Notes under the pieces: generated by a model
Databases searched by the model: none
The model's input: the letters and a program-made list of their open reading frames with translations, nothing else
What the model was told of the DNA's origin: nothing
NCBI GenBank assembly: GCA_028692955.1
Contig: JAQUWH010000001.1
Location: 65,496 to 129,495, forward strand
Source of the DNA: Clostridia bacterium
GTDB lineage: Bacteria; Bacillota; Clostridia; TANB77; CAG-465
DNA: 64,000 nucleotides
Reading direction: 5' to 3'
Position numbers and translations under genes: made by a program
In this document: piece by piece, positions 2,051 to 28,354 of the stretch
How positions within the stretch are numbered: position 1 is the stretch's first letter
How the letters are laid out: every line of letters begins with the position of its first letter

Positions 2051-3130
2051 GTGGAAGTAAGTAAGTTGCATATCATTAAGAAAACACTTATTGTTTTAAT
2101 ATTAGTATTAAGTATTGTTACATCTGGCGTATTCTTAATAACGACGCAATTAAAAACCATAACTTTAGACTATTATGGTAAGAAACAAACTATAAAGACT
2201 TTAGCAGTAGATGTTAATGATTTCTTAATGCAAAACAAACTGATTTTAGGAGAAAATGATAAAGTAGAACCTTCTAAAAACACAGTGTTGGCAAATGGTA
2301 TTGATATAAAGGTGAGCTCTGGTACAGAACTTGCTATGTTAGATATAGACAATATTTCTAGTACTTATGAAAATCCAATGGTAGCTAGAATAGAAGAAGT
2401 AATTGAAAATATACCTTTTGAGGAAGAAAAGAAAAATAATCCTTCTGTAGATAGAGGAATAGAAAATACAATACAAGAAGGTAAAGAGGGACAGAAATCA
2501 ACACGTTATATCGTAAAATATGATAATGGGCAAGAAATAGCAAGAGCGCAAATTTCTAATGAAGTAATTACTAAAACACAAAACAAAGTTATTGAAGTAG
2601 GCTCAAAATTACCAGTAATCACATCTAGAGGAAATGTTATAAGAACAACTAATGTTGATGCTGGATTTAAACAGTATAATATCAAGTTACCAGTAGAACA
2701 ACAAAAGTTTGCCTATAATCTTTGTAAGCAATATGGTATACAATATGAGTTGTTTTTGGCGATGATGTATAAGGAAAGTGGGTATAATCCTAATTCTTAT
2801 GGTGGATCGGGTAATCCATCTTATGGACTTTGTCAAATTTATGTTACCAATCATGCATGGCTTAGCAGTGCACTTGGTATTAGTGATTTCTTTAATCCAT
2901 ATGATAATATGACAGCGGGAGCTTTTTTGCTTGCTAGATATATAAATTCAGGTTATACACATGTTAGCTCACAAGGTACTGACGCGGTTGAAATATATGG
3001 GCTTAATTCATATAATATGGGTGAAGGTGTATATAATGCTTATTGCGGTAATAATGGTGTACAAAACAGAGCATATAGTACTTCTATTAGAAATTTAAGA
3101 GATAGATTAATTAACAATGGTGGTATATAA
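2051..3130 (+). CDS. YabE-like cell-wall protein: N-terminal membrane anchor, G5 domain and C-terminal SLT (lytic transglycosylase) domain. GTG start.
   Basis: G5-like segment (VDRGIENTIQEGKEGQKSTRYIVKYDNGQE...). SLT motif (MMYKESGYNPNSYGGSGNPSYGLCQIY). Position just upstream of rsmA matches yabE synteny. Confidence 0.7.
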   Translation: MEVSKLHIIKKTLIVLILVLSIVTSGVFLITTQLKTITLDYYGKKQTIKTLAVDVNDFLMQNKLILGENDKVEPSKNTVLANGIDIKVSSGTELAMLDIDNISSTYENPMVARIEEVIENIPFEEEKKNNPSVDRGIENTIQEGKEGQKSTRYIVKYDNGQEIARAQISNEVITKTQNKVIEVGSKLPVITSRGNVIRTTNVDAGFKQYNIKLPVEQQKFAYNLCKQYGIQYELFLAMMYKESGYNPNSYGGSGNPSYGLCQIYVTNHAWLSSALGISDFFNPYDNMTAGAFLLARYINSGYTHVSSQGTDAVEIYGLNSYNMGEGVYNAYCGNNGVQNRAYSTSIRNLRDRLINNGGI

Positions 3131-3192
3131 AAATAAGTAAAAATAAAAATAATTGCTATAGTTGTAGCAATTATTTTTGTTGGGAGAGAAAT

Positions 3193-4053
3193 ATGAAGAC
3201 GTTAGAAATAACAAAAAAAATATTGAAGCAATATAATATTAGAGCTGATAAAAGATATGGGCAAAACTTTTTAATAGATGATAATATATTAGAAAATATT
3301 GTTGATGTGTCCAATATAACAGATGATGATTTAATTATAGAAATTGGGCCAGGACTAGGTAACTTAACTAGCTATTTATTAAATAGAGCTGGGCATGCAT
3401 TATTGATTGAAATTGACAATAAAATGATTGAAATTTTGAATAATAGATTTGATGGGGTAAATAACTATACTTTACTCAATCAAGATATATTAAAAGTAAA
3501 TATTGATGAATTAATAAATAATGTGGAAGAAAAGCTTAACAAAAAATTTAAAACAGTAAAAGTGGTAGCTAATTTACCATACTATATTACTACTCCAATT
3601 TTATTTAAATTATTACAAGAATCAGCTAGAGTATCTGAGATTATAATTATGGTACAAAAAGAAGTAGCTGAGAGAATGGTTGCAAGACCTAAAACTAAAG
3701 ATTATGGTATTTTAACATTAATGGTAGAATATTTAGCGGTTGCAAGTATTGAATTTATTGTACCAAATAATAGTTTTATACCAGCTCCTGATGTGACATC
3801 TGCTATAATTAAATTAATAAAGAGCAAAAGATATAATGTCACAAATGAGGAGACACTATTTAAATTGATACATGCAAGTTTTGCACAACGTAGAAAAAAG
3901 ATGATAAATTCATTAGAATCAACTAGTTTCTTAGATATGTCAAAACATGATTTAGAAACCATTTTTCAAAAATGTGATTTATCATTAAATTCAAGAGCAG
4001 AAGAGTTAACAATCAATGATTATATAAAGATAATAGAAACAATAAAATTATAG
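3193..4053 (+). CDS. rsmA: 16S rRNA (adenine1518/1519-N6)-dimethyltransferase
   Basis: Classic KsgA N-terminus (RADKRYGQNFLID) and SAM-binding motif (IEIGPGLGNLT). Confidence 0.9.
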   Translation: MKTLEITKKILKQYNIRADKRYGQNFLIDDNILENIVDVSNITDDDLIIEIGPGLGNLTSYLLNRAGHALLIEIDNKMIEILNNRFDGVNNYTLLNQDILKVNIDELINNVEEKLNKKFKTVKVVANLPYYITTPILFKLLQESARVSEIIIMVQKEVAERMVARPKTKDYGILTLMVEYLAVASIEFIVPNNSFIPAPDVTSAIIKLIKSKRYNVTNEETLFKLIHASFAQRRKKMINSLESTSFLDMSKHDLETIFQKCDLSLNSRAEELTINDYIKIIETIKL

Positions 4054-4079
4054 GATTACTATAATTTTATTGTTTCTAT

Positions 4080-4304
4080 TTAATTATTTAGGAAATTAAG
4101 ATTTTGGTTAGCCATATCCTCGACAGCTGTGTTAATTCTAAATTTTGCATCATCATTTTTAGTATTATTTTGTATATAACTTTTAATCATATTTTTAGTA
4201 TTAGAATCTAGATTTGCAAAATAAGATAATGCTTTTTGATTCATACCGATAGATAAACTAAAACCAACTGGCATTTCAAGTTCATTATTTTCCACATTAG
4301 TCAC
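4080..4304 (-). CDS. Small hypothetical protein (74 aa)
   Basis: ORF only. No motif recognised. Confidence 0.35.
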   Translation of the reverse strand: MTNVENNELEMPVGFSLSIGMNQKALSYFANLDSNTKNMIKSYIQNNTKNDDAKFRINTAVEDMANQNLNFLNN

Positions 4305-4408
4305 CTCTGTTATTATTATGTCACAATCATAAAAAAATATGATATAAATAAACTATCTATACAAAAAAAGAAGAATATGATATAATTTTTGTATGAATAA
4401 GGTGAATT

Positions 4409-5668
4409 ATGGAAGATTGCAATGAAGCTAAAAGATTAGAGAAAAATATAAAAATTTATAAAAAATACAAAATGTTTTCTTATGATTTTGTATTCTATTA
4501 TGCTATCTTTGTGATATATTTCACAACAGTAAAAAACTTTAGTATGTCACAAGTAATGTATTTTAATGGGTTTTATACTTTTTTCGTATTTTTCTGGCAA
4601 ATGTTTGGAAATTTAATATTAGAAAAGATAAAAATAAAGAAAAGTATTGTGTTAGGTAATGTATTAGTAGCTTTACAAGCTCTTATTTATATATTTGGTA
4701 ATTATTTTAGTACATTGATATTTGCCGAATGCATAGGCGCCTTGGGATTTACACTTAAAAGTTTATCGGAAGGAACTTTACTTTACACATCGTTAAAGCA
4801 TACTGGAAAAAGAAAAGAGTTTACTAAAATAGAAGGAAAGGCAAACTCAAAATATTATTATTATGATGCAATTGCTTCCATATTATCTGGTCTATTATTT
4901 CTCGTAAGTCCATATTTGCCAATTATACTATGCTTTATCAATACTTTAATTAGTTTAGTGATGTCATTAAAATTTTCAGATATAGAAGAGAAGAATAAAG
5001 AAAGATATTCTGTAAAAGAAATAGTGAAAGATTTTAAAACTGTAATAAAAAAACAACGTGTTAAGTCCATTATTTTGTTTTCCTTTGTGTTTTCAGGTGT
5101 AATAGCAGTTAGTACTACATTATATAAAGCGATTATATTAGAAATGGGAGTAGGAGTCGAACTCAATTCAGTTATTATATGTATTTGTACGATATTTGTA
5201 GGAATTGGAGCAAAGCAGCTATTTTTTCTTGAAGCGAAAACAAAAAATAGAACATTAACATTCTTTGCTGCTATTTATACTGTGGCACTGCTTTCCATTG
5301 GATTTATTAGCCATTATTGTGGGTTAAATATACCTGTGACAATTGTTATGATAACATTACTGATAATCATTGGTTTAATTCAAGGGGCCTACAGGGTTGC
5401 CATCAAAAAATATGTATTAAATTTTACTACCAGTAAGGTTAGAACTAAAATAACATCTATTTATTATATGGCTGAAAATATAGGCTCGACGATTATGTTA
5501 TTTTTAATAGGAATATTACTTAATTATACAACTAGTGCAATGGCATGTATCTTATTTTCTGTTATTAGTGGGATGATTTTACTTTTTATACTATTATATA
5601 TTAAAAATAAACTTGGCTTAAAACCAGAGGAATATGACGCAGAAGAAATTAATAATACATTGATTTAA
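4409..5668 (+). CDS. Polytopic membrane transporter, MFS-like, about 12 TM segments. The start may be at the downstream Met.
   Basis: Alternating hydrophobic helices through the whole length. Followed by a terminator hairpin. Confidence 0.55.
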   Translation: MEDCNEAKRLEKNIKIYKKYKMFSYDFVFYYAIFVIYFTTVKNFSMSQVMYFNGFYTFFVFFWQMFGNLILEKIKIKKSIVLGNVLVALQALIYIFGNYFSTLIFAECIGALGFTLKSLSEGTLLYTSLKHTGKRKEFTKIEGKANSKYYYYDAIASILSGLLFLVSPYLPIILCFINTLISLVMSLKFSDIEEKNKERYSVKEIVKDFKTVIKKQRVKSIILFSFVFSGVIAVSTTLYKAIILEMGVGVELNSVIICICTIFVGIGAKQLFFLEAKTKNRTLTFFAAIYTVALLSIGFISHYCGLNIPVTIVMITLLIIIGLIQGAYRVAIKKYVLNFTTSKVRTKITSIYYMAENIGSTIMLFLIGILLNYTTSAMACILFSVISGMILLFILLYIKNKLGLKPEEYDAEEINNTLI

Positions 5669-5671
5669 TGA

Positions 5672-5704
5672 GTGACCAAAACCAGTATTTTGGTCACTTT
5701 TTGG
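5672..5704 (+). terminator. Intrinsic terminator after the transporter gene
   Basis: gtgaccaaaaccagtattttggtcac followed by ttttt. Confidence 0.55.
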
Positions 5705-5789
5705 TTTTATTCATTATTGACATTTATATCTTTTTGTATTATACTTAACATATCTTTAAGGGATTAAAGATATTTAGCGAGGAGTTTAT

Positions 5790-6815
5790 ATGGGAAATAT
5801 TAATTATTTATTCAAAAGAATTAAAAGTATGAATTTTTCTAATATGGTTGATACAGCAAAACAAGTGCATCAAGAAACGGGAAAGAACACAGCGCGTATA
5901 TTGTTTGATATAGTTTATTGTGGGTACAAATATATGGCTGGATTTGTTGATTATAAAGTGTTTAAAATGTATCTTTTAAACAAAGAGCAAAGGGCTACTT
6001 ATATTACTAGAGGAGTCAATAATAATTACGTTAAATTGTTAAACGACCCTGAAGCAATGAAAAAAGTGGATAATAAATTAGAGTTTAATAAAATTTATAG
6101 TGAGTTTATCAAAAGAGATTGGATATCTTTAACAGAAGTTAGTTACGAAGAGTTCGAAATGTTTTTTAAAAAGCACAAAGATATTATTGTAAAACCAGTC
6201 GATGAGATGTGTGGCAAAGGAGTTGCAAAAATAACTCTTAAAGAAGACACTGACATTAAGGTAGTATATGATGAATTAATTAAAAACAATCAAATTTTAA
6301 TTGAAGAATGTGTGAAACAAAATAATGAAATTGCAAAACTTAATCCATCTTCTGTTAATACACTAAGGGTGGTAACGTTAAAAAAGGAAAATGAAGTAAA
6401 GGTTTTATTTACTGCACTTAGAATTGGAAATGGAAAATCAGTAGATAATTTTAATAATGGAGGAATGTTTACGGTTGTTAATGAAGACGGAACGATCACA
6501 AAACCAGCCATTAGCAAAGATGGAACAGTATATACAGAGCATCCTCTAACCCATGAAAAAATAGTTGGGTTTAAGTTGCCAAATTTTGATATTGCGTTAG
6601 ATACAGCAAAAAAATGTGCTTCACAAATCGAAAAAGTAAGATATATCGGATTTGATGTGGTGATTACAGAAGATGATGCCCTTATTTTGGAAGCTAATCC
6701 GTTTCCTGGTCATGATTTATATCAATCTGTTGCACATTTAGATGAGGACTTACAAGGATTGAAACCTAGATTTGATAAAGAAATATTTGGAAATAAAAAG
6801 GAAGAAGTGAAATAA
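5790..6815 (+). CDS. ATP-grasp amide ligase of the sugar-transfer-associated (alpha-L-glutamate-ligase-related) type
   Basis: Domain order and motifs resemble the ATPgrasp_ST family (VKPVDEMCGKGVAKI ... IEECVKQNNE ... GFDVVITEDDALILEANPFPG). Has its own promoter-like TTGACA/TATTAT upstream. Confidence 0.6.
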   Translation: MGNINYLFKRIKSMNFSNMVDTAKQVHQETGKNTARILFDIVYCGYKYMAGFVDYKVFKMYLLNKEQRATYITRGVNNNYVKLLNDPEAMKKVDNKLEFNKIYSEFIKRDWISLTEVSYEEFEMFFKKHKDIIVKPVDEMCGKGVAKITLKEDTDIKVVYDELIKNNQILIEECVKQNNEIAKLNPSSVNTLRVVTLKKENEVKVLFTALRIGNGKSVDNFNNGGMFTVVNEDGTITKPAISKDGTVYTEHPLTHEKIVGFKLPNFDIALDTAKKCASQIEKVRYIGFDVVITEDDALILEANPFPGHDLYQSVAHLDEDLQGLKPRFDKEIFGNKKEEVK

Positions 6816-7609
6816 TGAAAGAAGAAAATGCAAATATAGAACTTGATGAAATATCAAGAGTTGAAAATAAAACGCTAGGAAATAATATACAAAAAGAGGA
6901 TATTTATACAAAATTTTCTCCTAATGATACAAAGGGACTTGTTATTAAAGTGGAAGGTGACTCTTACGAAAGATTTCCGATTAAAGTACCAGTTATCATG
7001 TCCGGTGACGACATCTATTCAATTATTAATGAACATGTAAGAGATTTTTTACAAGAAGGGGATATGATTTTTGTAAGTGAGAAAATAGTTGCTATTTCAC
7101 AAGGCAGAGCTTTTAAAATATCAGATATTAAACCTTCTAGACTTGCAAACTTTTTACAAAAATTTGTTCATAAGTCTGATGTAGGCATTGGTCTTGGAAG
7201 TCCTCACACTATGGAACTTGCAATTAGAGAATTAGGTAGAATTAGAATTTTATTTGCTGCAGGAATTGCGGCTATTACAAAACCGTTTGGTATTAAAGGA
7301 GCCTTTTACGTAATATGTGGACCAAAAGCACAAGCAATTGATGGCCCTTGTAGTTATACAATACCACCATATAATCATTATGCAAAACTTGCTCCAAAGG
7401 ACCCAGATAAAGTAGCAAAAAAATTAAAAGAAATAACTGGTGCTAAAGATGTAGTGATTATAGATGCTAACGATATAGGAGTTAATGTATTAGGAAAATC
7501 AGATAAAAAATTAAAAAATAAAATATTAGCTGCTATCTTTAAAGATAATCCATTAGGCCAAACAAACGAACAAACTCCACTTGCTATTGTGAGAAAAATT
7601 AACGAATAA
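6815..7609 (+). CDS. CofE-like (F420-0:gamma-glutamyl ligase fold) protein. Its start overlaps the ATP-grasp stop.
   Basis: CofE-type motifs FVSEKIVAISQGRA and VVIIDANDIGVNVLGKS. Translationally coupled (ATGA overlap). Confidence 0.55.
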   Translation: MKEENANIELDEISRVENKTLGNNIQKEDIYTKFSPNDTKGLVIKVEGDSYERFPIKVPVIMSGDDIYSIINEHVRDFLQEGDMIFVSEKIVAISQGRAFKISDIKPSRLANFLQKFVHKSDVGIGLGSPHTMELAIRELGRIRILFAAGIAAITKPFGIKGAFYVICGPKAQAIDGPCSYTIPPYNHYAKLAPKDPDKVAKKLKEITGAKDVVIIDANDIGVNVLGKSDKKLKNKILAAIFKDNPLGQTNEQTPLAIVRKINE

Positions 7610-7654
7610 TACAAAAACGAGATAGAAAATATTAAAAATACTTGGGAATAACCA

Positions 7655-7698
7655 AACCAACCAATTAATTTAATTTAAATTAATTGGTTGGTTTTTTC
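7655..7698 (+). terminator. Intrinsic terminator with a perfect 16-bp stem
   Basis: aaccaaccaattaatt ... aattaattggttggtt followed by tttttt. Confidence 0.7.
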
Positions 7699-7822
7699 TT
7701 AAAATATAACTTATATTAACGCTATAACTCCTAAAAGAGGCGCAGTTTTATAGCGGCATAACAAAATTAAAACAAGAAAATCAACTCGATTGAAAAAATG
7801 GAGTTGATATCAATATTTTAAT

Positions 7823-7898
7823 TGGAGCTGAAAGTCCGATTTGAACGGACGACCTGCTGTTTACAAGACAGCTGCTCTACCAACTGAGCTATTCCAGC
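7823..7898 (-). tRNA. tRNA-Thr (anticodon UGU), last gene of a three-tRNA operon
   Basis: Reverse complement folds as a cloverleaf: acceptor gctggaa, anticodon stem gctgt/acagc, loop cttgtaa, T-loop ttcaaat, encoded CCA. Confidence 0.7.
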
Positions 7899-7904
7899 AA
7901 ATGA

Positions 7905-7979
7905 TGGTGACCCGTGGGAGAATCGAACTCCCCACTCCGCCGTGAAAGGGCGGTGTCTTAACCGATTGACCAACGGGCC
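7905..7979 (-). tRNA. tRNA-Glu (anticodon UUC)
   Basis: Reverse complement ggcccgttggtcaatcggttaagacaccgccctttcacggcgg... Anticodon loop ctttcac. Encoded CCA. Confidence 0.8.
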
Positions 7980-8008
7980 ATATACATATCCCGATTAGTC
8001 AGTTTATC

Positions 8009-8084
8009 TGGTGAGCCATCGCAGATTCGAACTGCGGACAACTTGATTAAAAGTCAAGTGCTCTGCCAACTGAGCTAATGGCCC
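8009..8084 (-). tRNA. tRNA-Lys (anticodon UUU)
   Basis: Reverse complement gggccattagctcagttggcagagcacttgacttttaatcaag... Anticodon loop cttttaa. Encoded CCA. Confidence 0.8.
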
Positions 8085-8119
8085 AGACATAAGACAACCG
8101 GAAAATGTATTGCTAATAC

Positions 8120-8148
8120 ATAATACTATATTTTTTGAATGTTGTCAA
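8120..8148 (-). promoter_or_regulatory. Promoter of the tRNA operon
   Basis: On the minus strand: TTGACA (8143-8148), 17 nt, TATTAT (8120-8125). Confidence 0.5.
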
Positions 8149-8320
8149 TACTTTTTGAGATATTTGTGTAAAAAATGTGAAAATATATCATTCTGTATTA
8201 TTTTAAAATGCAACTTTTTTTATGTCGAATAGGGTCTACTTTCAGCTAACTATGTCGAAACGTTCTAAAAATATTGACACCTTTTATTGAAAATGCTAAA
8301 ATTGTGTTAGGTGAAAGGAA

Positions 8321-10135
8321 ATGTTTATTCTAATTGATTTTATTTTCTTAGTATTGTTTTTTTCAATTAAGTTATATTCTTGTGCAGACACTCACTTTTT
8401 ATTTCAAGAATCAGGAGCCAAATTAGAGAAATATATAAAGAAGAATGATTTGCAAAATATAACGGACAACTTAGTACATCATAAATTTAAATTTTTTTCA
8501 AAGTTTCAAAAAAAATTTCAATCGCCTATTAATATAAAGCAAGCTTTTATTAGCTTGCTTATTGGAATAACGATGCTATTTGTTAAAATAGCATTTACAT
8601 ATAAATTTGCTTTATCTAATTTTTTTTATATTAACATGTTAGAGAAGAATATAGATGTGGCATCTATATTTTCACAGTATTTCATTATACTTAAAGTTTT
8701 ATATTATTTTCTATCTTTTTTTCTATATGTGAGCATTTCACATAAAATCTTAAAATATACACAGAAGCAAAAAAATCAAAAAAATTAATTCAGACAGATT
8801 TCAACCTTAAAATAGGAATAGACAAATCAGGTGAAAATATTTGTATCAAGGAAAATGGAGTGTATCAGAACATTTTGATTTCAGGAAGTATTGGCACAGG
8901 AAAAAACGAGTAGTGCCATTACTAATATATTAGATGAACTAATTCGTAAAAATATTTATGGATTGATTATTGATGTAAAAGGAAATTATATCAATAGCGT
9001 AGAAAAAGTGGCAAAAAAATATAACAAACAAGACTTGATTTATAAAGTTTCACTTGATAGCAATGTTTGCTATAATCCTTTAGACAAGGAAGATATTAGT
9101 ACTTTAGAACTTGCCAATAGAATGAAAAAAGTTTTACAAATTTTATCAGAGAAAAGCATTTCAGATTCTTTTTGGCTTGATAAAGCTGAAATGTATATTA
9201 GGGATTTCATTACCATTATTAAAGTATACAAAGAATATGTCAGTTTCTCAGAATTACACAAGATTATTACTAGTTATGAATACTTAAATGAAAAAATAGA
9301 GGAGGTTAAGAGAATTGTACTTGCCAATAAACTAGATGATGAAACGTTATTTAATGTTAATTCTGCAATCTATAATATAAAAAATGAATACTTAAAATTA
9401 GATGATAGAACTATTAACATTATTAGGGCAGAAATAACCAGAATTACTAATTTGTTTGTGAGTGACTATACTATTTTCAGACAATTTTGCTCAAAAAATA
9501 ATCTCAAAGATTTCTATCATAAAATCACTGTACTATCTATTAATTATGGTGAAAATAAATATTTAGCAAAAGTTATTTCTACTTATTTAAAGCTAGATTT
9601 TCAATCTCAAGTATTATCTCAAAAAAACAATTTTATTCCTATATTTTTTATCTGTGATGAATTTCAAGAATATGCTAATGTTGAAGATTCTAATTTTTTT
9701 TCGTTATCTAGAGAGTATAAATGTATCAATGTAGTGAGCATGCAAAGTTATTCTTCACTATTACATACTATTAAAGATAAGGATGCTGTTAATGTTATAT
9801 TACAAAATCTAGTAAATAAAATTTGGTTTAGAAATGATGATAATTACACGATAAGCGAAATTATTAAGCAGTTGGGAAAAGAAGAAAAAGAGACGGATGC
9901 TGTAAGCTATTCTGAGAGTAATCAAAATGTAAGATATAGCCTTTTTAGTAATAAATTTAAAAATTATAATAGTGGATTATCAAAGACATATTCGCTTAAT
10001 AAGAGGATTGATTACAAATATACAGAAGATTATTTTTCCATGGGCCTTTGCAACTTTGAATGTGCTTGTTTATTATCTGATGGAAATGCCATGACGTTTT
10101 ATGAAAAAATATTTTTAAAAAGATGGGAGGGATAA
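8321..10135 (+). pseudogene. VirD4/TraG/TcpA-like type IV coupling protein (T4CP) broken by two +/-1 frameshifts inside A-homopolymer runs
   Basis: Frame 2 ORF (TM-rich N-terminus) stops at 8786-8788 in the tract aaaaaaatcaaaaaaatt. Frame 1 then continues ...FNLKIGIDKSGENICIKENGVYQNILISGSIGTGKNE and stops in the tract ggaaaaaacgag. Frame 2 resumes TSSAITNILDELIRKNIYGLIIDVKGNY...CYNPLDKED. Joining the three pieces restores Walker A GSIGTGKTSS plus the T4CP signature motifs. Confidence 0.65.
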
Positions 10136-10137
10136 AA

Positions 10138-10470
10138 ATGAAACAATTAACAAAAAATCAAAAAAACAAGATAGTGATATTCTTATTTATCATTTTTGTA
10201 GTAGGCAACCATATATTTGCCGCTACTGATCCAACACTGGTAAATAAACTAGGAACTGTTTTTAAAAGAATATTGTCTTATTTGAAAACACTGGCCACTC
10301 CAGCAGCTGGGGTAGCAATAGCAAGCGGAATTATGTTTAGGAAGTTTAGTTTTGGTGATGAAGAAAAAATGATAAAAGGAAAGAAAATAATTATTAATGC
10401 TATTATCTGTTATGCAATGATACTCTCTATCGATCTCATTACTAAATTTATTGAGGCGGTTGTTAAATAA
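10138..10470 (+). CDS. Small secreted or membrane protein, possibly a conjugative pilin-like (VirB2/TrbC-like) component
   Basis: Signal-peptide-like N-terminus, central hydrophobic block ATPAAGVAIASGIMF, second TM near the C-terminus. Sits immediately after the T4CP. Confidence 0.35.
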   Translation: MKQLTKNQKNKIVIFLFIIFVVGNHIFAATDPTLVNKLGTVFKRILSYLKTLATPAAGVAIASGIMFRKFSFGDEEKMIKGKKIIINAIICYAMILSIDLITKFIEAVVK

Positions 10471-11312
10471 TGGTGGCAAATGATATTATCAATAATCTAA
10501 ATAATGTACTGGAAAAGTTATTCAAGTCAATAGAAGGGACCATTTTTCAAACAATAGATAGCTTGATTTCAATAGGCCCTGATATATTACAAAAAGAACC
10601 ACTAAATAACATTATTTTTGATAATAAAATGAATGGACTTATTTTAATTGCGAATGTTTTAGTCATATTTTTTATTGCACATTATATATTTAAACAATTG
10701 ATTAGCATTTATAACGGTAATAAAATAGAGAGTATCTATTTATTTATCATTAGAGTGATTATTGTCTTAATTATTGTCAACTCAAGCTATTTTATATGTA
10801 AAGAAATATTGAATATATTTGATGTTTTGAGTGATACCATAGATGTCTATGCTACAGATACCATAAAAAAAGAAATAACCTTTGAAAATTTAAAAAATAA
10901 CATTACCAATATAGAAGATATTATGAATAGTGATTTAATTAGCTTAGATGGGATTATAAAAGGTATAGTTTCATTTGGCTCTGTTTCAATCTTAATTAAC
11001 TTTTCAGTTAGATACGCAACTGTTCTTTTTTTAATTATTATATCCCCTTTTGCATTTGTAAGTTTAGCCAGCAATTTGACAAGTGGAATTTTCAGTACGT
11101 GGGCAAAAATATTAGTCTTAAATTTATCTACCACTATAGTGATAAAACTATTAATATTTATTCCACTAGCTTTTCATGATCAAAGAAGTATCATGTATAA
11201 GATTATTTTAGTAGGCGTAATATCATTAATCTATAAATTTAATGTTTTTATAAAAGAAATATTAGCTAGAATATCAAGTGAAAGTAATGTAAAAAACATA
11301 TTTAGGGAATAA
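10470..11312 (+). CDS. Polytopic membrane protein, VirB6/TrbL-like by architecture (T4SS channel component)
   Basis: At least five TM helices. Its start overlaps the stop of the preceding gene. Lies between T4CP and a VirB3-like gene. Confidence 0.35.
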   Translation: MVANDIINNLNNVLEKLFKSIEGTIFQTIDSLISIGPDILQKEPLNNIIFDNKMNGLILIANVLVIFFIAHYIFKQLISIYNGNKIESIYLFIIRVIIVLIIVNSSYFICKEILNIFDVLSDTIDVYATDTIKKEITFENLKNNITNIEDIMNSDLISLDGIIKGIVSFGSVSILINFSVRYATVLFLIIISPFAFVSLASNLTSGIFSTWAKILVLNLSTTIVIKLLIFIPLAFHDQRSIMYKIILVGVISLIYKFNVFIKEILARISSESNVKNIFRE

Positions 11313-11315
11313 AAA

Positions 11316-11639
11316 ATGGAAAAGATTAAGAATTATTATAACTTTAAAAGAGAAAATAAGTGGCTTGGAATAATAGACTATAAAACACTACTGTTGCTTT
11401 TATTCTATATAGCAGTTATCGTGTTATTATTAAAAAATATAAATATTAAATTGGAATATCTTGTTTATATATTTATCACCTTAACGTTGCCAGTTTTTAT
11501 TATTGTATTTATAAATATTGGAAATGAAAGTGTGTATGATGTAATTATTGTTTTGCTAAAATATTATATAAAAAGAAAAATCTATGTAAAGGGGAGATAC
11601 ATAAGGAGTCTGAAGGACGAAATTTATAAAAAAATGTAA
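11316..11639 (+). CDS. Small two-TM protein, VirB3/PrgI/TcpE-like
   Basis: 107 aa with two adjacent hydrophobic helices and a basic tail. Confidence 0.35.
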   Translation: MEKIKNYYNFKRENKWLGIIDYKTLLLLLFYIAVIVLLLKNINIKLEYLVYIFITLTLPVFIIVFINIGNESVYDVIIVLLKYYIKRKIYVKGRYIRSLKDEIYKKM

Positions 11640-11747
11640 GAAAAAAAATAAAGCTTGTGTCTATTTTTGTCGAAAAACCGAATATATTTTGAAATTTTAA
11701 AGTTTTATGTTAAAATAGATGCTATAAATGAATGAGGGGGATAGCAC

Positions 11748-12194
11748 ATGAAAAGGGGAAGAATTATCTTAATGATAGTAAGTGTTTTATTACTTGCAGG
11801 ATTTATTATTGAAATTGTATTCTTCTTAAGATGGTCAAGTTATAGGTCATCAGGAGACAAAAAAGTATCGAATGAATCATACCTTGAACGCTATTATAAA
11901 ATTGTTCAAATAACGGCCAAACAAGATAATATTTTACATGAATATACTATTATAACAACGAAAGAAGGAAAAGTAATAGATACAAGAATAGTAAAAACGG
12001 GTTATACCACAGATAAATTAGTAGAAGAGTGTAACACGTTAAGAAAATCTGAAGATGTGATATATAACTTGATAGAGGGAGAGAATGATATAAAGTATAA
12101 TTCCAGTGGCGATAATGGGAAACAAGTAGACGATGTGGTAAAAGATTATCAAAATAATGAAGCTTTCAAAGTAGTTACTATTAGGAAAATTTAA
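11748..12194 (+). CDS. N-terminally anchored small protein, paralog A
   Basis: One TM then a soluble domain. Clearly paralogous to the next ORF (YKIVQITAKQDNILHEYTIITTKEGKVIDTRIVKTGYT versus YHVFQITSKENGILSEYFAITTKEGAARDT...RIIESGYS). Confidence 0.5.
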   Translation: MKRGRIILMIVSVLLLAGFIIEIVFFLRWSSYRSSGDKKVSNESYLERYYKIVQITAKQDNILHEYTIITTKEGKVIDTRIVKTGYTTDKLVEECNTLRKSEDVIYNLIEGENDIKYNSSGDNGKQVDDVVKDYQNNEAFKVVTIRKI

Positions 12195-12216
12195 TAAGGA
12201 AGGAGTATATAATGTT

Positions 12217-12666
12217 ATGAAAAAAGACAAGAACCTACTGATTTTTCTCACTATTTTAATCTTTTTGATTATATTATTTAGTGCTTTATTCTATTATCAG
12301 TGGAAGAATGTTCAATATAGCGAAGTAACAGTTCAAGATTTTAGTAAACAATATGGATATCATGTATTTCAGATTACAAGTAAAGAAAATGGAATTTTAA
12401 GTGAATATTTTGCCATTACTACTAAAGAAGGTGCAGCTAGGGATACTATAGTATTGGATACAAGAATCATAGAAAGTGGTTATTCAGGAGAAAAATCGAG
12501 TGAAAGATATGAACTACTGAATAACTTTCATGGCATAGTATATAACGTGACGAAAACAGAAGGAACAATCTCATATAATACTTCAGTTAATAATGGGAAA
12601 TCAGTATATGAATTAATAAATGCAAGGAAAAATTATTGTAAAGATGTAGTGGTAAAAGAAAATTAG
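12217..12666 (+). CDS. N-terminally anchored small protein, paralog B
   Basis: Tandem duplicate of the previous gene. A terminator hairpin (gattcctagac...gtctaggaatc tttt) follows. Confidence 0.5.
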   Translation: MKKDKNLLIFLTILIFLIILFSALFYYQWKNVQYSEVTVQDFSKQYGYHVFQITSKENGILSEYFAITTKEGAARDTIVLDTRIIESGYSGEKSSERYELLNNFHGIVYNVTKTEGTISYNTSVNNGKSVYELINARKNYCKDVVVKEN

Positions 12667-12751
12667 ACAAAAGAGATTCCTAGACAAAAGTCTAGGAATC
12701 TTTTGGTATGGAGATAATAACTTATTTAATTGAAGAGGTTTTCTTCAATTT

Positions 12752-13195
12752 TTATGCGTCTCTAAGTAAAACACTGACAGCACCTGCTCCGGGTGAACTA
12801 ACATAAACGGTGTATGTACCAGCAACACTGTTGTTAATACGTTGGACTACCTGCCGACCGGGTGCGACCTGAATTACGGTGTCTGGAAAACAGTTCTTGC
12901 CATTTGGAGAAATAATCTGTACGTATGCCACAGCTGTTGAGGACTCAGCATTGTAGATAACTGCTTCTCCATATAAACTCCAACCAGGAGAATTGATAGT
13001 GAAGCTAGCAGCTCCGTTGAAATAAACACTTCCCATTCCACTGATGGCTCTTGTATTTGGAACCATAAGTTCTTGTGTTGCTAGAGCATCAGAAGCGACA
13101 GGAAGTTCCGTAGCATAGGAAGGAACAGCAAGTGTAAAACACATTGCAATTACCAACAGGAAAGATAGAATCTTTTTGCGGGAAAATTTTTTCAT
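12752..13195 (-). CDS. Secreted Gly/Ala/Val/Ser/Pro-rich beta-type protein with signal peptide
   Basis: Signal peptide MKKFSRKKILSFLLVIAMCFTLAVPSYA. The CDS has much higher GC than its flanks. Promoter and RBS look host-like. Confidence 0.55.
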   Translation of the reverse strand: MKKFSRKKILSFLLVIAMCFTLAVPSYATELPVASDALATQELMVPNTRAISGMGSVYFNGAASFTINSPGWSLYGEAVIYNAESSTAVAYVQIISPNGKNCFPDTVIQVAPGRQVVQRINNSVAGTYTVYVSSPGAGAVSVLLRDA

Positions 13196-13500
13196 TTTAA
13201 TATCTCCTTCATTTTTGATAATTTTATTATACTCTCCACACCCTTAATTTTAAAAATATGCTTTACGTAATTGATAAGCATATTATATATCGTATCTACA
13301 AAAAAACAATAAATGTGCCAAAATACTACTTTTTTCGACAAAACTAGACATGCTGACAACAGCATTATACAATTTAGCAAAATTAATTCCACTACTATTG
13401 ACGTAAAAATAGCAAAAATAAAATGATTAATAAATCAAACGTATTGTAAAAGAATCAAACTAATGATATAATCATAACATATATTTTAGGAGCGTTTTTT

Positions 13501-14463
13501 ATGAAATTTTTACAGAAGAATAAAATGGAATTATGTGATACTCAAGTGGCTGATTTGTTCATTTTAAATAACATGTTTAGTTTAGAGGCAATAGATATTA
13601 AATTATATCTATATATGCTTTTTTTGTCTAAAAATCAAACTGAAATAGATAAAGCAAATTTAGCAAAAAAACTATGTGTAACAGAACAAGAAATGGGTTT
13701 TGCTTTAGATAGACTACAAGCTGAGGAACTTATTATTAAAACAACTCAAGGTTTTATCATTGCGGACTTAAAAGAAAATGAAATTAATAAGACATATATT
13801 CCGAAGTTAGAACCTAAAATCAATAGAATTCAATCGGAATTAGAGAGAAAGAGAATTGCCGCTGCTGAAGCTATCAATGAATCATTTTTCCAAGGAATCA
13901 TGTCTCTTGGTTGGTATACGGATATTGGCACTTTATTTAAAAATTATAGTTTTTCTGAAGAGGTGATGATTGCATTATTTCACTATTGTCAAGAAAGAAA
14001 TGCTCTTAATAAAAAATATGTATATGCTGTTGCTGAAAATTGGTATAATGGCGGAGTTAAAACGTTTGAACAGTTGGAAGAGTTTTTAGAAAGTTATGAT
14101 TGCTTACAAAAAATAAAACAAAAGATTGTAAAGGCGTTAAGATTAAATAGAAATATTACTAAATATGAAGAACAATATATTAATACGTGGGTGAAGGATT
14201 ATAATTATGATTTTACAATGATAGAGGAAGCGTTAAAGAGAACAGTAACGATTGCCAATCCAACCATTAGCTATATTAATGGTATATTAAATAATTGGCA
14301 CAAAAAGGGCTATAAGACGGTAAAAGATATAGAATCAGATGTCAAAACTCATGATGATAAGGCAAAGCAATATAATAAGAATACAGTAAAAGAAAAAAAC
14401 AAATTTCAAAATTATGAGCAGAGAAGTTATACTGATTTAGAATCATTTTATGATAACATGTGA
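13501..14463 (+). CDS. DnaD-domain replication initiation/helicase-loader accessory protein (DnaD/DnaB_2 family)
   Basis: C-terminal DnaD-like motif YINGILNNWHKKGYKTVKDIE. Upstream TTGTAA-17-TATAAT promoter. Confidence 0.65.
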   Translation: MKFLQKNKMELCDTQVADLFILNNMFSLEAIDIKLYLYMLFLSKNQTEIDKANLAKKLCVTEQEMGFALDRLQAEELIIKTTQGFIIADLKENEINKTYIPKLEPKINRIQSELERKRIAAAEAINESFFQGIMSLGWYTDIGTLFKNYSFSEEVMIALFHYCQERNALNKKYVYAVAENWYNGGVKTFEQLEEFLESYDCLQKIKQKIVKALRLNRNITKYEEQYINTWVKDYNYDFTMIEEALKRTVTIANPTISYINGILNNWHKKGYKTVKDIESDVKTHDDKAKQYNKNTVKEKNKFQNYEQRSYTDLESFYDNM

Positions 14464-14480
14464 TGGGAGGAGGATGTTTT

Positions 14481-15500
14481 ATGGATAATGAAGCATATCT
14501 AAAAGTAAAAAAAGAGTACGACAATAAAAGAGAGAATAAAATAGCTAAAGCTGAAGAAATAAAAAAACAAATTTATATAGAACATCCAAAACTACGTGAG
14601 TTAGAAACGCAGAGGAATTTACTAGCTATAAAAATTACAAAAGAAATGCTATATTCTGATGAGCTAAATAAGCAAATTGCTCAAGATAATATGCAACTCA
14701 ATTTAGAAAATATAGATAAGAAGATAGAAAGAGAATTAAAAGAAGCTCATATAACAAAGTTTGATTTAGAACCAAAATTCGATTGTCAGGATTGCAAAGA
14801 TACGGGATTGATTGTTAATAATGGAAACACTGAATATTGTTCATGTTTTTTACAAAAAGTAATTAATGAAACATATAAACAAACTAACATTGCAAAGTTA
14901 GATGAAGAAAATTTTGAAACGTTTGATTTAGGATTTTATTCTAATAATGTAAATTTTGAAAAATATGGAATTGGTACATCCCCAAGGCAAAATATAGAAA
15001 AAATAAAAAATATCGCTTTAGAGTTTGTAGATAATGTGGATAATCCACAGCAAAAAAATCTGTTGTTTGTGGGAAATACCGGACTGGGTAAAACATTTTT
15101 AGCAAATGCTATTGCAAAAAAAATATTGGATCATTCAAAATCTGTTATTTACCAGACAGCACCAATTTTTATGGATAAAATAATGGAATTTAAATTTTCA
15201 CAAGGAAGTGATAAATCACAGTATTATAAAATATTTGATGTCGATTTATTAATTATTGATGATCTTGGTACAGAAACTATGACCAATAATAAATATACAG
15301 AATTATTTAATATTATCAACACAAGACTATTAAATAATAAGAAAATATTGATTTCTACTAATTTAACATTAAATGAATTATATGAAAGATATGACGAAAG
15401 AGTTATCTCTCGATTAATCGGTGAATTTAGAATTTGTAAATTTATTGGTGATGATATTAGATTAAAGAAAAAAAGAATTAGTAGTGATAAAAATATATGA
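14481..15500 (+). CDS. DnaI/DnaC-like helicase-loader ATPase with N-terminal zinc-binding module
   Basis: Cys cluster CQDCKDTG...CSCF. Walker A GNTGLGKTFLANAIA. Walker B LLIIDDLGTE. RBS gggaggagg 7 nt before the ATG. Confidence 0.7.
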   Translation: MDNEAYLKVKKEYDNKRENKIAKAEEIKKQIYIEHPKLRELETQRNLLAIKITKEMLYSDELNKQIAQDNMQLNLENIDKKIERELKEAHITKFDLEPKFDCQDCKDTGLIVNNGNTEYCSCFLQKVINETYKQTNIAKLDEENFETFDLGFYSNNVNFEKYGIGTSPRQNIEKIKNIALEFVDNVDNPQQKNLLFVGNTGLGKTFLANAIAKKILDHSKSVIYQTAPIFMDKIMEFKFSQGSDKSQYYKIFDVDLLIIDDLGTETMTNNKYTELFNIINTRLLNNKKILISTNLTLNELYERYDERVISRLIGEFRICKFIGDDIRLKKKRISSDKNI

Positions 15501-15548: not shown

Positions 15549-16550
15549 TTATATTTCAAAATCCGATTTGTCTGGAAATATATACGCTAAAGAATTATTT
15601 ATTTCATTTTGAGCTTTTACAAAATCTTTCAAAGGATAAGAATCGTTAATGCATATCATGTTATATTTTTGGTTTTTAATCGTTTTTATTAATCTTGTAT
15701 TATCATCTAAAACAGTAAAGTATTTACCATTCATTATGGTAGGGATAAATTTGCCATTAAATAAATTAAAATATCTAAAAATGCCTTGCCCTAAATCAGT
15801 ATTACTCCTAAATTTATTTTCACATGCTATATCAAGTATTTTATATTCTTGTTCCCATACCTTAAAGAAAGTACTTTTTAAACAGGGCTGTGATAAATGT
15901 AAGGATAATATATCATTAAATTGATACATACTAAAGTATCTTATTGTTTTTAAATTATGAAAACCATATTTTATATTCAAAATTTTAAAAAAATTATTTT
16001 TTAGGAAAGTTGTTTTATTAAAATGTTTTGCTAATACATTGTTATAATTTTTTCTCAAAATACTATGTCTTTTACTACAGTTTTTCTTAATATACTCCAC
16101 GTAAAAATCTTTAGGCAAATCTTTATAAAAGAAATCAGTTTCTTTTAAATGATTTAGTATAAAAATATCGTCATTTAATAAGATAAATTGTTCTGATAAA
16201 TCTTTTATTCTATGTAGGTTAGTTTCAATTACATTGGAATTAAAAGTTGGTAAATATTTTTTTGGTATAAATTCATCATGACGAATAATTCTGATTTTTT
16301 GATTATTAGTATTAAGCCATGATGGAATATGACCCCAGGTTACAAAGAAAATATGATGTATCCAACTTGCGTATTTTTCTATGCCTCTAAATAAATATTG
16401 TAGATTATTAAAATCTCTAAATCTATTAATAGATGAATCTCCCTTAACATTTGAATAGTTGTTTTTTTCTTTTATCCACTCTGGGTCATTGCCATCTACC
16501 CATAATATTACTGCATCTATTTTATTTGAATATTTCATATTGTTTACCAT
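15549..16550 (-). CDS. Stealth-family (CR1-CR4) hexose-1-phosphoryltransferase, paralog 2
   Basis: Stealth motif ILWVDGNDPEW, plus FFVTWGHIP and LLNDDIF. Confidence 0.65.
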   Translation of the reverse strand: MVNNMKYSNKIDAVILWVDGNDPEWIKEKNNYSNVKGDSSINRFRDFNNLQYLFRGIEKYASWIHHIFFVTWGHIPSWLNTNNQKIRIIRHDEFIPKKYLPTFNSNVIETNLHRIKDLSEQFILLNDDIFILNHLKETDFFYKDLPKDFYVEYIKKNCSKRHSILRKNYNNVLAKHFNKTTFLKNNFFKILNIKYGFHNLKTIRYFSMYQFNDILSLHLSQPCLKSTFFKVWEQEYKILDIACENKFRSNTDLGQGIFRYFNLFNGKFIPTIMNGKYFTVLDDNTRLIKTIKNQKYNMICINDSYPLKDFVKAQNEINNSLAYIFPDKSDFEI

Positions 16551-22148: not shown

Positions 22149-22476
22149 ATAGAGTATTTCAGATAGTCGCTTGCTTTGGTAAGAGGAAAGTCCGGACACC
22201 GTAGGGCAATAGTGCTAGATAACGTCTAGTGAGAGTGATCTTAAGGAAAGTGCAACAGAAAAAAACCGCCACTTGTGGTAAGGGTGAAAACGCGAGGTAA
22301 GAGCTCACGAACAGATATGGAGACATGTATGTGGTGTAAACCCCACTTGGTGCAACATCGCAGTAGAAAGGTTAAGACTGCCCGTCGTCTTTCGTGGTTG
22401 ATGGCTTGAAATATATAGCAATATATATTCTAGATAAATGACTATTTAATACAGAATCCGGCTTACGAAGTGCTCT
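22149..22476 (+). ncRNA. rnpB: RNase P RNA, type A
   Basis: Universally conserved GAGGAAAGUCCGG, GGUAAGGGUGAAA...GGUAAGAGC and ACAGAAUCCGGCUUA motifs. P1 pairing agagtatttc (22149-22158) with gaagtgctct (22467-22476). Confidence 0.75.
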
Positions 22477-22477
22477 A

Positions 22478-28338: not shown

Positions 28339-28354
28339 TTTATGGGGTGATGAA

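What the first reader, a model, noticed from the sequence alone, without database searches (positions are those of the whole stretch)
8321..10135. Coupling-protein gene inactivated by two frameshifts, each inside a poly-A run
The reading frame of a VirD4/TcpA-like T4CP jumps from frame 2 to frame 1 in aaaaaaatcaaaaaaatt (about 8770-8788). It jumps back to frame 2 in ggaaaaaacgag (about 8880-8890). Splicing the three segments restores a canonical Walker A (GSIGTGKTSS) and downstream T4CP motifs (IIDVKGN, YNPLD). Both lesions are homopolymer indels. That fits slipped-strand mutational decay, or a phase-variable or programmed-slippage gene.
Basis: seen in the sequence. Interest (0 to 1): 0.6.

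Follow-up and report, generated by a model that had tools for sequence, protein, structure and literature searches.

The report
Frameshifted coupling-ATPase gene in gut Clostridia
A gene for a type IV secretion "coupling" ATPase is knocked out of frame by two single-base slips in runs of A. This is an ordinary, probably recent gene inactivation, but the gene belongs to an undescribed four-gene secretion-like module conserved next to dnaB-dnaI in uncultured gut Clostridia.

Summary
The gene at 8321-10135 is read in three pieces: 8321-8784 (frame pos%3=2), 8785-8904 (frame pos%3=1) and 8906-10135 (frame pos%3=2).

Adding one A at an A7 run (8769-8775 or 8778-8784) and removing one A from the A6 run at 8901-8906 gives a 604-aa protein. 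It aligns end to end with about 600-aa homologues and keeps all 49 family-invariant residues, including the P-loop GSIGTGKTS.

The protein is TrwB/VirD4-type by Pfam and fold. It is not TcpA/FtsK-type. It is not on a mobile element. It is the first gene of a module of T4CP, VirB2-like pilin, VirB6/TrbL-like and PrgI/VirB3-like genes. That module sits upstream of dnaB-dnaI in all 16 species-level relatives whose contig reaches that far.

An independent assembly of the same sample reproduces the extra A at site 2. Site 1 could not be checked independently.

No other gene in the window is broken, although 560 A/T runs lie in intact ORFs. Relatives need no frameshift, so programmed slippage or phase variation is unsupported.

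Best reading: a recent, real inactivation (about 0.6). The main rival is a MAG artefact at site 1 (about 0.2).

The parts
8274..8302 (+). Promoter-like site TTGACA-17 nt-TAAAAT with an extended -10 TG, followed by the Shine-Dalgarno sequence AGGTGAAAGGAA just upstream of ATG 8321
   Evidence: Best-scoring + strand site in 8000-13600, 11 of 12 matches. The same promoter and Shine-Dalgarno block is conserved in the sister species (alignment).
8321..8784 (+). Segment 1 (frame pos%3=2): the N-terminal membrane-anchor domain of the T4CP-like protein, residues 1-154. As the sequence stands, the ORF stops at TAA 8786-8788 (155 aa).
   Evidence: Hydrophobic stretches near residues 1-23, 70-98 and 113-140. 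The model of the sister protein has helices there. It aligns with the homologues' N-termini.
8769..8784 (+). Site 1: AAAAAAATCAAAAAAA (two A7 runs). This is the inferred position of a 1-nt deletion (-1). The shift can only be bounded to 8746-8788.
   Evidence: Frame analysis. The linker is Lys-rich and variable. Relatives L008 and L005 carry A8 runs here.
8785..8904 (+). Segment 2 (frame pos%3=1): 40 codons, LIQTDFNLKIGIDKSGENICIKENGVYQNILISGSIGTGK. It holds the start of the ATPase domain and the P-loop up to its lysine.
   Evidence: It contains the family-invariant residues G166, G180, Q183, N184, L186, I187, G189, S190, I191, G192, G194 and K195.
8901..8906 (+). Site 2: an A6 run inside GGA-AAA-(A)-ACG. 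This is a 1-nt insertion (+1) in the Gly-Lys-Thr codons of the Walker A motif.
   Evidence: All five relatives aligned at this point have GGNAAAAC with A5. The Logan assembly of SRR22315505 (L001) reproduces A6 exactly.
8906..10135 (+). Segment 3 (frame pos%3=2): the rest of the ATPase, TSSAITNIL...KRWEG. It includes IIDVKGN, YNPLD, the Walker B-like FFICDEFQE and the TraG-D_C region. It is annotated in NCBI as a 414-aa protein starting at TTG 8891 (MDD3303372.1).
   Evidence: TTG 8891 has only 2 nt between AGGAAG and the start codon, so independent initiation is unlikely (inference).
10123..10470 (+). VirB2-like pilin gene (115 aa). Its start overlaps the end of the T4CP gene by 13 nt.
   Evidence: Pfam T4SS_pilin PF18895, 31.1 bits, cut-off 26.6. 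Conserved in every relative.
10470..11312 (+). VirB6/TrbL-like polytopic membrane protein gene (280 aa)
   Evidence: The window protein itself has no Pfam hit. 10 of the 17 aligned family members match Pfam TrbL, best E 7.8e-6. Conserved position in all relatives.
11316..11639 (+). PrgI/VirB3-like small membrane protein gene (107 aa)
   Evidence: The window protein itself has no Pfam hit. 7 of the 16 aligned family members match Pfam PrgI, best E 8.6e-5. Weak match to the N-terminus of a VirB4 model (E 0.0017).
11748..12666 (+). Two paralogous genes (148 and 149 aa) with an N-terminal hydrophobic segment. They are a variable-copy appendage of the module.
   Evidence: Four copies in L003/L004, two in the window, none in L005-L007. 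No family hit.

Best explanation
What the gene is. The gene at 8321-10135 encodes the ATPase of a chromosomal, vertically inherited four-gene T4SS-like module. The ATPase is a TrwB/VirD4-type coupling-protein homologue. The other three genes are a VirB2-like pilin, a VirB6/TrbL-like protein and a PrgI/VirB3-like protein. The module lies just upstream of dnaB-dnaI in a clade of uncultured low-GC gut Clostridia.

What happened to it. In this genome two replication-slippage indels have inactivated the gene:
- loss of one A in an A run of the Lys-rich linker (A8 to A7, at 8769-8784; position inferred);
- gain of one A in the GGA-AAA-ACG codons of the Walker A motif (A5 to A6, at 8901-8906; shown).

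Consequences. Translation from ATG 8321 stops at TAA 8786 and yields only the 155-aa membrane anchor. The P-loop lies in another frame. The remaining 410 codons have no credible start and no P-loop, so no active ATPase can be made (inferred from the sequence).

Timing. The event is recent. Apart from the two indels, the gene cannot be told from a selected orthologue, and the promoter and the three downstream genes are intact.
For: - Frames and repair.
- Full-length colinearity with intact homologues; 49/49 invariant residues kept.
- T4CP identity: Pfam; fold match to TrwB at E 1e-12 and Cagbeta at 1.2e-12, using the model of the 71% identical sister.
- Site 2 carries one A more than every relative aligned there. 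An independent k-mer assembly of the same run reproduces it. Three Logan contigs (11.7 kb) are exact substrings of the window.
- No general homopolymer problem. 560 A/T runs of 5 or more (72 of 7 or more) lie inside 49 other uninterrupted ORFs. All 39 neighbouring proteins scanned give full-length family matches or have orthologues of equal length. Intergenic gaps are accounted for by RNase P RNA, a T-box, SRP RNA and tRNAs.
- Two hits in one gene out of about 50 fit relaxed selection after a first knockout better than they fit random error.
- The module is conserved and syntenic with dnaB-dnaI in relatives whose T4CP is only 36-71% identical.
- In the sister species the gene is intact and under purifying selection, dN/dS 0.09-0.20.
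- Two further species representatives (L011, L021) also carry a frame break in this gene and in no other module gene.
Against: - The window comes from a metagenome-assembled genome seen in a single sample (SRR22315505).
- Site 1 was not covered by any independent contig I could retrieve. The 155-aa ORF is not on record in the assembly index, and the Logan contig breaks at 8819, between the two sites.
- The two indels cancel in length and lie only about 120 nt apart. That would also be expected from a local consensus problem.
- There is no sign of decay other than the indels. Mean identity to 113 outgroup homologues is 50.97%, against 50.87% for the intact sister. All invariant residues are kept. 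The rest of the operon is intact.
- The platform and coverage of the reads are unknown.
Confidence: 0.6

Rival explanations
1. Assembly or consensus artefact. The organism's gene is intact, or carries only one lesion, and one or both indels were introduced by sequencing, assembly or polishing of the MAG.
For: - The source is a MAG from one sample.
- The gene is otherwise perfectly conserved, and the sister species keeps it under purifying selection.
- The indels compensate each other in length.
- The Logan contig breaks between the sites, and the N-terminal ORF is not on record.
Against: - Site 2 (A6) is reproduced by the independent Logan assembly. All 11.7 kb of retrievable Logan contigs are identical to the window.
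- 560 other A/T runs in 49 ORFs are intact, including 15 runs of 8.
- Even if site 1 were an error, the A6 at site 2 alone ends the frame at TAG 8911 inside the P-loop. The gene would still be inactivated.
Confidence: 0.2
2. Phase variation. The A runs act as contingency tracts that switch the module's ATPase on and off, and the MAG captured an OFF state.
For: - Both lesions are, or are inferred to be, homopolymer length changes in a very AT-rich gene with 17 runs of 6 or more.
- Surface and pilus systems are typical targets of phase variation (general knowledge).
- The contig break between the sites could reflect heterogeneity among reads.
Against: - The tracts are short (A7, A6) and no longer than dozens of others in housekeeping ORFs.
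- Site 2 is a fixed A5 in every relative aligned there.
- Four strains of the sister species show no indel in the 1818-nt gene.
- Two independent lesions would both have to revert, so this is not a one-step switch.
Confidence: 0.1
3. Programmed recoding. A -1 ribosomal frameshift at A_AAA_AAT followed by a +1 shift at AAA_AAC, or transcriptional slippage at both runs, yields the full-length ATPase.
For: - CAA_AAA_AAT occurs twice just before the stop and contains a slippery heptamer in the correct frame for a -1 shift.
- A6 allows tRNA-Lys to re-pair at +1.
Against: - The feature is not conserved. Twenty intact orthologous loci read these points in a single frame.
- No structure follows site 1: z +0.64, with 148 of 200 shuffles folding at least as well.
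- There is no slow or stop codon in the A site for the +1 shift.
- Runs of 6-7 A are below the lengths at which transcriptional slippage is appreciable (general knowledge), and two events would be needed per molecule.
Confidence: 0.03
4. Functional split gene. The membrane anchor (155 aa) and the soluble ATPase part (414 aa) are made as separate proteins that work together.
For: - NCBI annotates the 414-aa ORF as a protein.
- In L021 the frame break leaves a downstream ORF that starts at an ATG and keeps an intact P-loop.
Against: - In the window the 414-aa ORF starts after GSIGTGK, so it lacks the P-loop.
- Its TTG start lies 2 nt from the nearest Shine-Dalgarno-like sequence.
- The 40 conserved codons in between are in a frame with no start codon.
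Confidence: 0.02

Closest known systems
TrwB (plasmid R388), VirD4 and Cagbeta type IV coupling proteins
   Same: - N-terminal membrane anchor followed by a RecA-like nucleotide-binding domain with an inserted all-alpha domain.
- Pfam TrwB_AAD_bind and TraG-D_C matches above their cut-offs.
- Best structural matches are TrwB 1e9s (E 1e-12, target TM 0.68) and Cagbeta 8dol.
- Walker A and a Walker B-like motif are present after repair.
   Different: - Only 10-17% identity to the solved structures, and no PDB hit by sequence.
- No NCBIfam T4CP model is reached; the best is SXT_TraD at 40.8 bits against a cut-off of 366.
- No close relative on 72,556 plasmids; the best is 27% identity.
- The gene sits in a fixed chromosomal position next to dnaB-dnaI. 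No relaxase belongs to the module (only L008 has a Mob_Pre gene, in an insert upstream), and no VirB4 gene lies within 6-8 kb.
- Here the gene is frameshifted.
TcpA of Clostridium perfringens pCW3 (an FtsK/SpoIIIE-type coupling protein)
   Same: Both are membrane-anchored P-loop ATPases linked to T4SS-like genes in Clostridia (role of TcpA from general knowledge).
   Different: TcpA belongs to the FtsK/SpoIIIE family. The protein here gives no FtsK_SpoIIIE Pfam match at E up to 0.01, and its fold hits are TrwB/VirD4-type.
Chromosomal, relaxase-less MPF_FATA-like T4SS of Patescibacteria (bioRxiv 10.1101/2025.01.22.634366)
   Same: - T4SS-derived genes are fixed in the chromosome of uncultured bacteria, without a relaxase and near replication genes.
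- The components include VirB2-like pilins (PF18895/PF04956), PrgI/VirB3 and VirB6 homologues.
- The pilin-like or small secreted genes vary in copy number.
   Different: - The Patescibacteria clusters are built around VirB4, often with TrsD.
- Here the only ATPase within 6-8 kb is T4CP-like, and no VirB4 was found near the module in any locus.
- The host clade is Clostridia, and the anchor genes are dnaB-dnaI rather than dnaA.
Homopolymer-indel pseudogenes in AT-rich bacterial genomes (for example poly(A)-tract frameshifts in insect endosymbionts; general knowledge)
   Same: Single-base gain or loss in mononucleotide runs is the first visible lesion of a gene that has come off selection. The rest of the ORF still looks intact.
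   Different: The endosymbiont cases that are rescued by transcriptional slippage have tracts of about 9-10 or more A. Here the tracts are 6-7 A, and no rescue is expected.

Membership tests
VirD4/TrwB-type type IV coupling protein (T4CP) | Sequence match to T4CP profile models above the curated threshold | tested here: met
   The repaired 604-aa protein hits PF10412 at 64 bits (cut-off 20.5) and PF12696 at 35.2 bits (cut-off 22). No NCBIfam T4CP model reaches its cut-off.
VirD4/TrwB-type type IV coupling protein (T4CP) | N-terminal transmembrane anchor followed by a cytoplasmic ATPase | tested here: met
   Hydrophobic 19-residue windows near residues 1-23, 70-98 and 113-140. Long helices at 2-27, 71-94 and 115-157 in the model of the sister protein.
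VirD4/TrwB-type type IV coupling protein (T4CP) | Intact Walker A (GxxGxGKT/S) and Walker B in one polypeptide | tested here: not met
   As the sequence stands, GSIGTGK is in frame pos%3=1 and TSS... is in frame pos%3=2. The motifs are restored only after two single-base edits.
VirD4/TrwB-type type IV coupling protein (T4CP) | TrwB-like fold with an all-alpha domain | tested here: met
   AlphaFold2 model of P0001 (71% identical, pLDDT 85.4). Foldseek finds TrwB at E 1e-12, Cagbeta at 1.2e-12 and VirB4 at 5.7e-9. The test used the sister protein, not the window's product.
VirD4/TrwB-type type IV coupling protein (T4CP) | Encoded together with a relaxase and a VirB4-containing mating-pair-formation set | tested here: not met
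   VirB2-, VirB6- and VirB3-like genes follow the gene. No relaxase belongs to the module: the only one seen is a Mob_Pre gene in an insert upstream of the L008 module. No VirB4 lies within 6-8 kb in the loci scanned or among the window ORFs scanned. Genome-wide absence was not testable.
TcpA/FtsK-type coupling protein | FtsK_SpoIIIE ATPase domain | tested here: not met
   No FtsK_SpoIIIE hit at E up to 0.01. The best fold matches are TrwB and Cagbeta.
Pseudogene made by slipped-strand homopolymer indels | Frame breaks relative to intact orthologues, each located in a mononucleotide run | tested here: met
   Site 2: A6 against A5 in every relative aligned there. Site 1: bounded to 8746-8788, a stretch that contains two A7 runs. 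The exact base is inferred.
Pseudogene made by slipped-strand homopolymer indels | Lesions reproduced in independent data | tested here: inconclusive
   Site 2 is reproduced in Logan contig L001, from the same reads but a different assembler. Site 1 is not covered by any retrievable contig. The same species was not found in the GTDB representatives or the JGI metagenomes.
Pseudogene made by slipped-strand homopolymer indels | Signs of relaxed constraint beyond the indels | tested here: not met
   No excess divergence: 50.97% against 50.87% identity to 113 outgroups. 49/49 invariant residues are kept. This fits a very recent event or an artefact.
Phase-variable (contingency) locus | A hypermutable tract, unusually long for the genome, whose length varies among strains or reads | tested here: not met
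   A7 and A6 compare with 72 runs of 7 or more in other ORFs. There is no tract-length variation among four sister-species strains. Site 2 is A5 in every relative aligned there. Read-level variation was not testable.
Programmed frameshift or transcriptional slippage gene | The frameshift is conserved in orthologues and comes with stimulatory signals | tested here: not met
   Twenty intact orthologous loci read these points in one frame. No structure follows site 1, z +0.64. A slippery A_AAA_AAT is present, but such sequences are common in this genome.

The most novel reading that the evidence does not exclude
The broken gene would be the motor of a previously undescribed, domesticated T4SS-derived apparatus. 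The apparatus is a four-gene operon: a TrwB-like ATPase, a VirB2-like pilin, a VirB6-like protein and a PrgI/VirB3-like protein. No relaxase belongs to the module and no VirB4 lies within 6-8 kb. It is inherited vertically just upstream of dnaB-dnaI across a clade of uncultured low-GC gut Clostridia, and the ATPase is under purifying selection in the sister species. On this reading it serves a non-conjugative function such as a pilus, adhesion, or DNA or protein transfer. Its ATPase gene is lost recurrently: it is broken here and in 2 of 15 other species representatives.
Probability: 0.35. Interest if true: 0.55.

Novelty: new member of a known kind. Interest (0 to 1): 0.25.

Why it matters
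The finding itself is ordinary. It is a gene disabled by homopolymer indels in a MAG, and it mainly matters for annotation: the NCBI record presents the 414-aa tail as a protein, although it lacks a P-loop.

What could matter is the context. The gene is not debris from a conjugative element. It is the ATPase of a conserved chromosomal T4SS-like module of unknown function in uncultured gut Clostridia. Natural knockouts such as this one show that the ATPase is dispensable in some lineages. They also give a comparative handle on what the module does.

Tried and rejected
- Exact-product look-up of the 155-aa N-terminal ORF: not on record. A homology search with the N-terminal 195 aa returned nothing, apparently a limit of the word index. 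Site 1 therefore could not be verified independently.
- Look-ups of four neighbouring proteins (264, 280, 107 and 320 aa): they found only Logan contigs from the same run, SRR22315505, and no second sample of this species.
- Scans of the GTDB representatives and the JGI metagenomes: nothing closer than 71% identity.
- The 520-aa members of the sister cluster looked like further N-terminal disruptions. They are only alternative start calls, and the N-terminus is in frame.
- Repeated k-mers as the cause of the Logan contig breaks at 7877, 8819 and 12558: none found in the window.
- Sequence search of the PDB with the family profile: only a chance CtpB hit.
- Literature: no paper mentions the run accession. 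No paper describes this module. PF18895 appears only in the Patescibacteria T4SS study and in one structure survey.
- Horizontal origin: rejected. GC3 of the gene (0.215) matches housekeeping genes at 0.18-0.21, and synteny is conserved.
- Compensatory frameshift pair translated through the shifted frame: rejected, because frame pos%3=2 has stops at 8786, 8813, 8819 and 8876.
Full report
**1. What the sequence shows**

The region 8321-10135 lies on the + strand, just after a tRNA-Thr/Glu/Lys cluster on the - strand at 7823-8084.

- An ORF starts at ATG 8321, behind a strong Shine-Dalgarno sequence and the best promoter-like site of the region (TTGACA-17-TAAAAT, 8274-8302). It runs in frame pos%3=2 to TAA 8786-8788 and encodes 155 aa.
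- The stop follows AAAAAAATCAAAAAAA (two A7 runs, 8769-8775 and 8778-8784).
- Frame pos%3=1 is open from 8746 to TAG 8911-8913. It reads ...LIQTDFNLKIGIDKSGENICIKENGVYQNILISGSIGTGKNE*.
- Frame pos%3=2 is open again from 8879 to 10135. Its longest ORF starts at TTG 8891 and encodes 414 aa.
- Adding one A at site 1 and removing one A from the A6 run at 8901-8906 gives a continuous 604-codon frame.

GGAAAAAACGAG is at 8899-8910, and the intact A8 in rsmA is at 3213-3220.

**2. The three pieces are one gene**

- The repaired protein matches Pfam TrwB_AAD_bind (E 1.5e-17) and TraG-D_C (E 1.4e-8).
- It has thousands of homologues, and almost all of the 120 best hits are 570-690 aa long.
- It aligns end to end with them. 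The frame pos%3=1 segment supplies invariant residues G166, G180, Q183, N184, L186, I187, G189, S190, I191, G192, G194 and K195. Segment 3 supplies T196 and S197.
- Against a 90-sequence family alignment it keeps 49/49 invariant and 77/82 near-invariant columns. The intact sister protein P0001 gives the same figures.
- At site 2 every relative aligned there has GGN-AAA-ACN, an A5 run. The window has A6, a +1 insertion.
- Site 1 lies in a Lys-rich linker that differs between relatives and often holds A8 runs. The -1 event can only be bounded to 8746-8788.

**3. What kind of protein it is**

An AlphaFold2 model of P0001 (71% identical, pLDDT 85.4) matches TrwB (E 1e-12) and H. pylori Cagbeta (1.2e-12) best. 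HerA (1.1e-10) and VirB4 (5.7e-9) follow.

Together with the N-terminal hydrophobic helices, this makes it a TrwB/VirD4-type coupling-protein homologue. It is not an FtsK-type TcpA.

It is a distant member:
- no NCBIfam T4CP model reaches its cut-off;
- there is no PDB hit by sequence;
- no plasmid in PLSDB has a relative above 27% identity.

A full scan of 1.84 billion representative proteins finds 295 clusters at E of 1e-30 or better.

**4. Context**

The next three genes are:
- a VirB2-like pilin (PF18895, above its cut-off);
- a 280-aa membrane protein, for which 10 of the 17 aligned family members match TrbL/VirB6;
- a 107-aa protein, for which 7 of the 16 aligned family members match PrgI/VirB3.

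The order T4CP, pilin, VirB6-like, PrgI-like, then 0-4 small genes, then dnaB (DnaB_2) and dnaI, recurs in every related locus whose contig reaches far enough. That covers the sister species, a 51% identical relative and 14 of the 15 GTDB species representatives, with T4CP identities from 71% down to 36%.

Flanking large ORFs in these loci are housekeeping genes (valS, gyrA, pyrG, tex, proS). None is a VirB4. Only L008 has a relaxase gene (Mob_Pre, next to a serine recombinase), in an insert upstream of its module.

The gene's GC3 (0.215) equals that of housekeeping genes. The module is therefore chromosomal and vertically inherited. It is not an ICE remnant.

In the sister species, four distinct strains carry an intact 1818-nt gene. 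They show no indels, and dN/dS is 0.09-0.20.

**5. Real or artefact?**

The window comes from an NCBI MAG. The 414-aa tail is MDD3303372.1, on a 194,821-nt contig. The organism was found in one run only, SRR22315505.

For a real lesion:
- Three Logan contigs from that run are exact substrings of the window: 2815-7877, 8819-12582 and 12558-15474. A different assembler therefore reproduces A6 at site 2.
- The window holds 560 A/T runs of 5 or more (72 of 7 or more, 15 of 8) inside 49 other uninterrupted ORFs.
- All scanned neighbours give full-length family matches.
- RNase P RNA, a T-box, SRP RNA and tRNAs account for the intergenic gaps.

A general homopolymer error process is thus excluded. 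Two hits in one gene fit relaxed selection after a first knockout.

Caveats:
- Site 1 (in the stretch 7878-8818) is not covered by any contig I could retrieve, and the 155-aa product is not on record.
- The indels cancel in length.
- The gene shows no other decay.

Even if site 1 were wrong, A6 at site 2 alone would end the frame at TAG 8911, inside the P-loop.

**6. Programmed or phase-variable?**

This reading is not supported:
- Orthologues are contiguous at both sites.
- The sister strains show no tract-length variation.
- The tracts are ordinary for this genome.
- No structure follows site 1 (z +0.64).
- The +1 site has no slow codon.
- Two reversions would be needed.

The 414-aa ORF cannot be an independent ATPase. 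It lacks GSIGTGK, and its TTG start lies 2 nt from the nearest Shine-Dalgarno-like sequence.

**7. Verdict**

The most likely reading (about 0.6) is a recent, genuine inactivation by two slipped-strand indels. It hits the ATPase gene of a conserved chromosomal T4SS-like module. The promoter and the three downstream genes remain intact.

As a finding it is ordinary. The module itself is the more interesting object:
- it has no relaxase of its own and no VirB4 within 6-8 kb;
- it is fixed next to dnaB-dnaI;
- the gene is also broken in two other species representatives, L011 and L021.

Its closest described analogue is the chromosomal relaxase-less T4SS of Patescibacteria, which is centred on VirB4.

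Noticed in passing
window 25435-27420 (+), with neighbours 24566-25087 and 27522-28208: A second, intact coupling-protein gene. It matches the NCBIfam 'VirD4-like conjugal transfer protein, CD1115 family' model at 435.6 bits (cut-off 250) and Pfam T4SS-DNA_transf at E 7.7e-78. It stands alone between a VanW/G5 gene and SRP RNA/dnaX. Its two neighbours have no family hit, and no VirB4 or relaxase was found among the window ORFs scanned. It may be an orphan ICE remnant or part of a dispersed system.
   Followed up: partly
L011 about 6620-6635 (CAYJMD010000006.1) and L021 about 1150-1170 (JAFYUV010000005.1): Two other species-level MAGs carry a frame break in the orthologous gene, about 15 codons after and about 15 codons before the Walker A motif. 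Neither break is in a homopolymer. In L021 the downstream ORF starts at an ATG and keeps the P-loop. All other module genes and dnaB-dnaI are unbroken in the loci examined. The four breaks in three genomes fall within about 60 codons of a 600-codon gene.
   Followed up: partly
window 11748-12194 and 12217-12666; L003 5573-7538: Paralogous genes of about 145 aa with an N-terminal hydrophobic segment lie between the PrgI-like gene and dnaB. Their copy number varies: 4 in the sister species, 2 in the window and 0 in the 51% identical relative. They have no family hit. They recall the variable pilin or secreted-protein arrays reported next to the Patescibacteria T4SS.
   Followed up: partly
whole window: No A or T run longer than 8 occurs in 64 kb at 29% GC, although there are 21 runs of exactly 8. 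Three of those 21 lie in the T4CP gene (8508-8515, 8620-8627, 9694-9701) and are in frame.
   Followed up: no
upstream of the module: window 7823-8084; L003 198-1913; L008 1430-4942: The upstream flank of the module is variable and attracts insertions. It holds a tRNA-Thr/Glu/Lys cluster in the window, a DDE transposase in L003, and a serine recombinase plus Mob_Pre relaxase in L008. The downstream flank (dnaB-dnaI, with gyrA nearby) is fixed.
   Followed up: partly
window 8819, 12558-12582 and 7877: The Logan contigs of SRR22315505 break at these points. The break at 8819 falls between the two frameshift sites. No repeated 15- or 20-mer within the window explains any of the breaks. Strain heterogeneity or low coverage is possible but was not tested.
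   Followed up: partly
window 22151-22480, 28254-28339 and 42391-42625: RNase P RNA (class A), small SRP RNA just upstream of dnaX, and a T-box leader upstream of valS. All are full-length Rfam matches and account for the larger intergenic gaps.
   Followed up: yes
window 15549-16550 and 16550-17566 (-): Two tandem Stealth-family (CR1-CR4) genes sit between dnaI and a metallo-beta-lactamase-fold gene. They are absent from the corresponding position in the sister locus L003.
   Followed up: no
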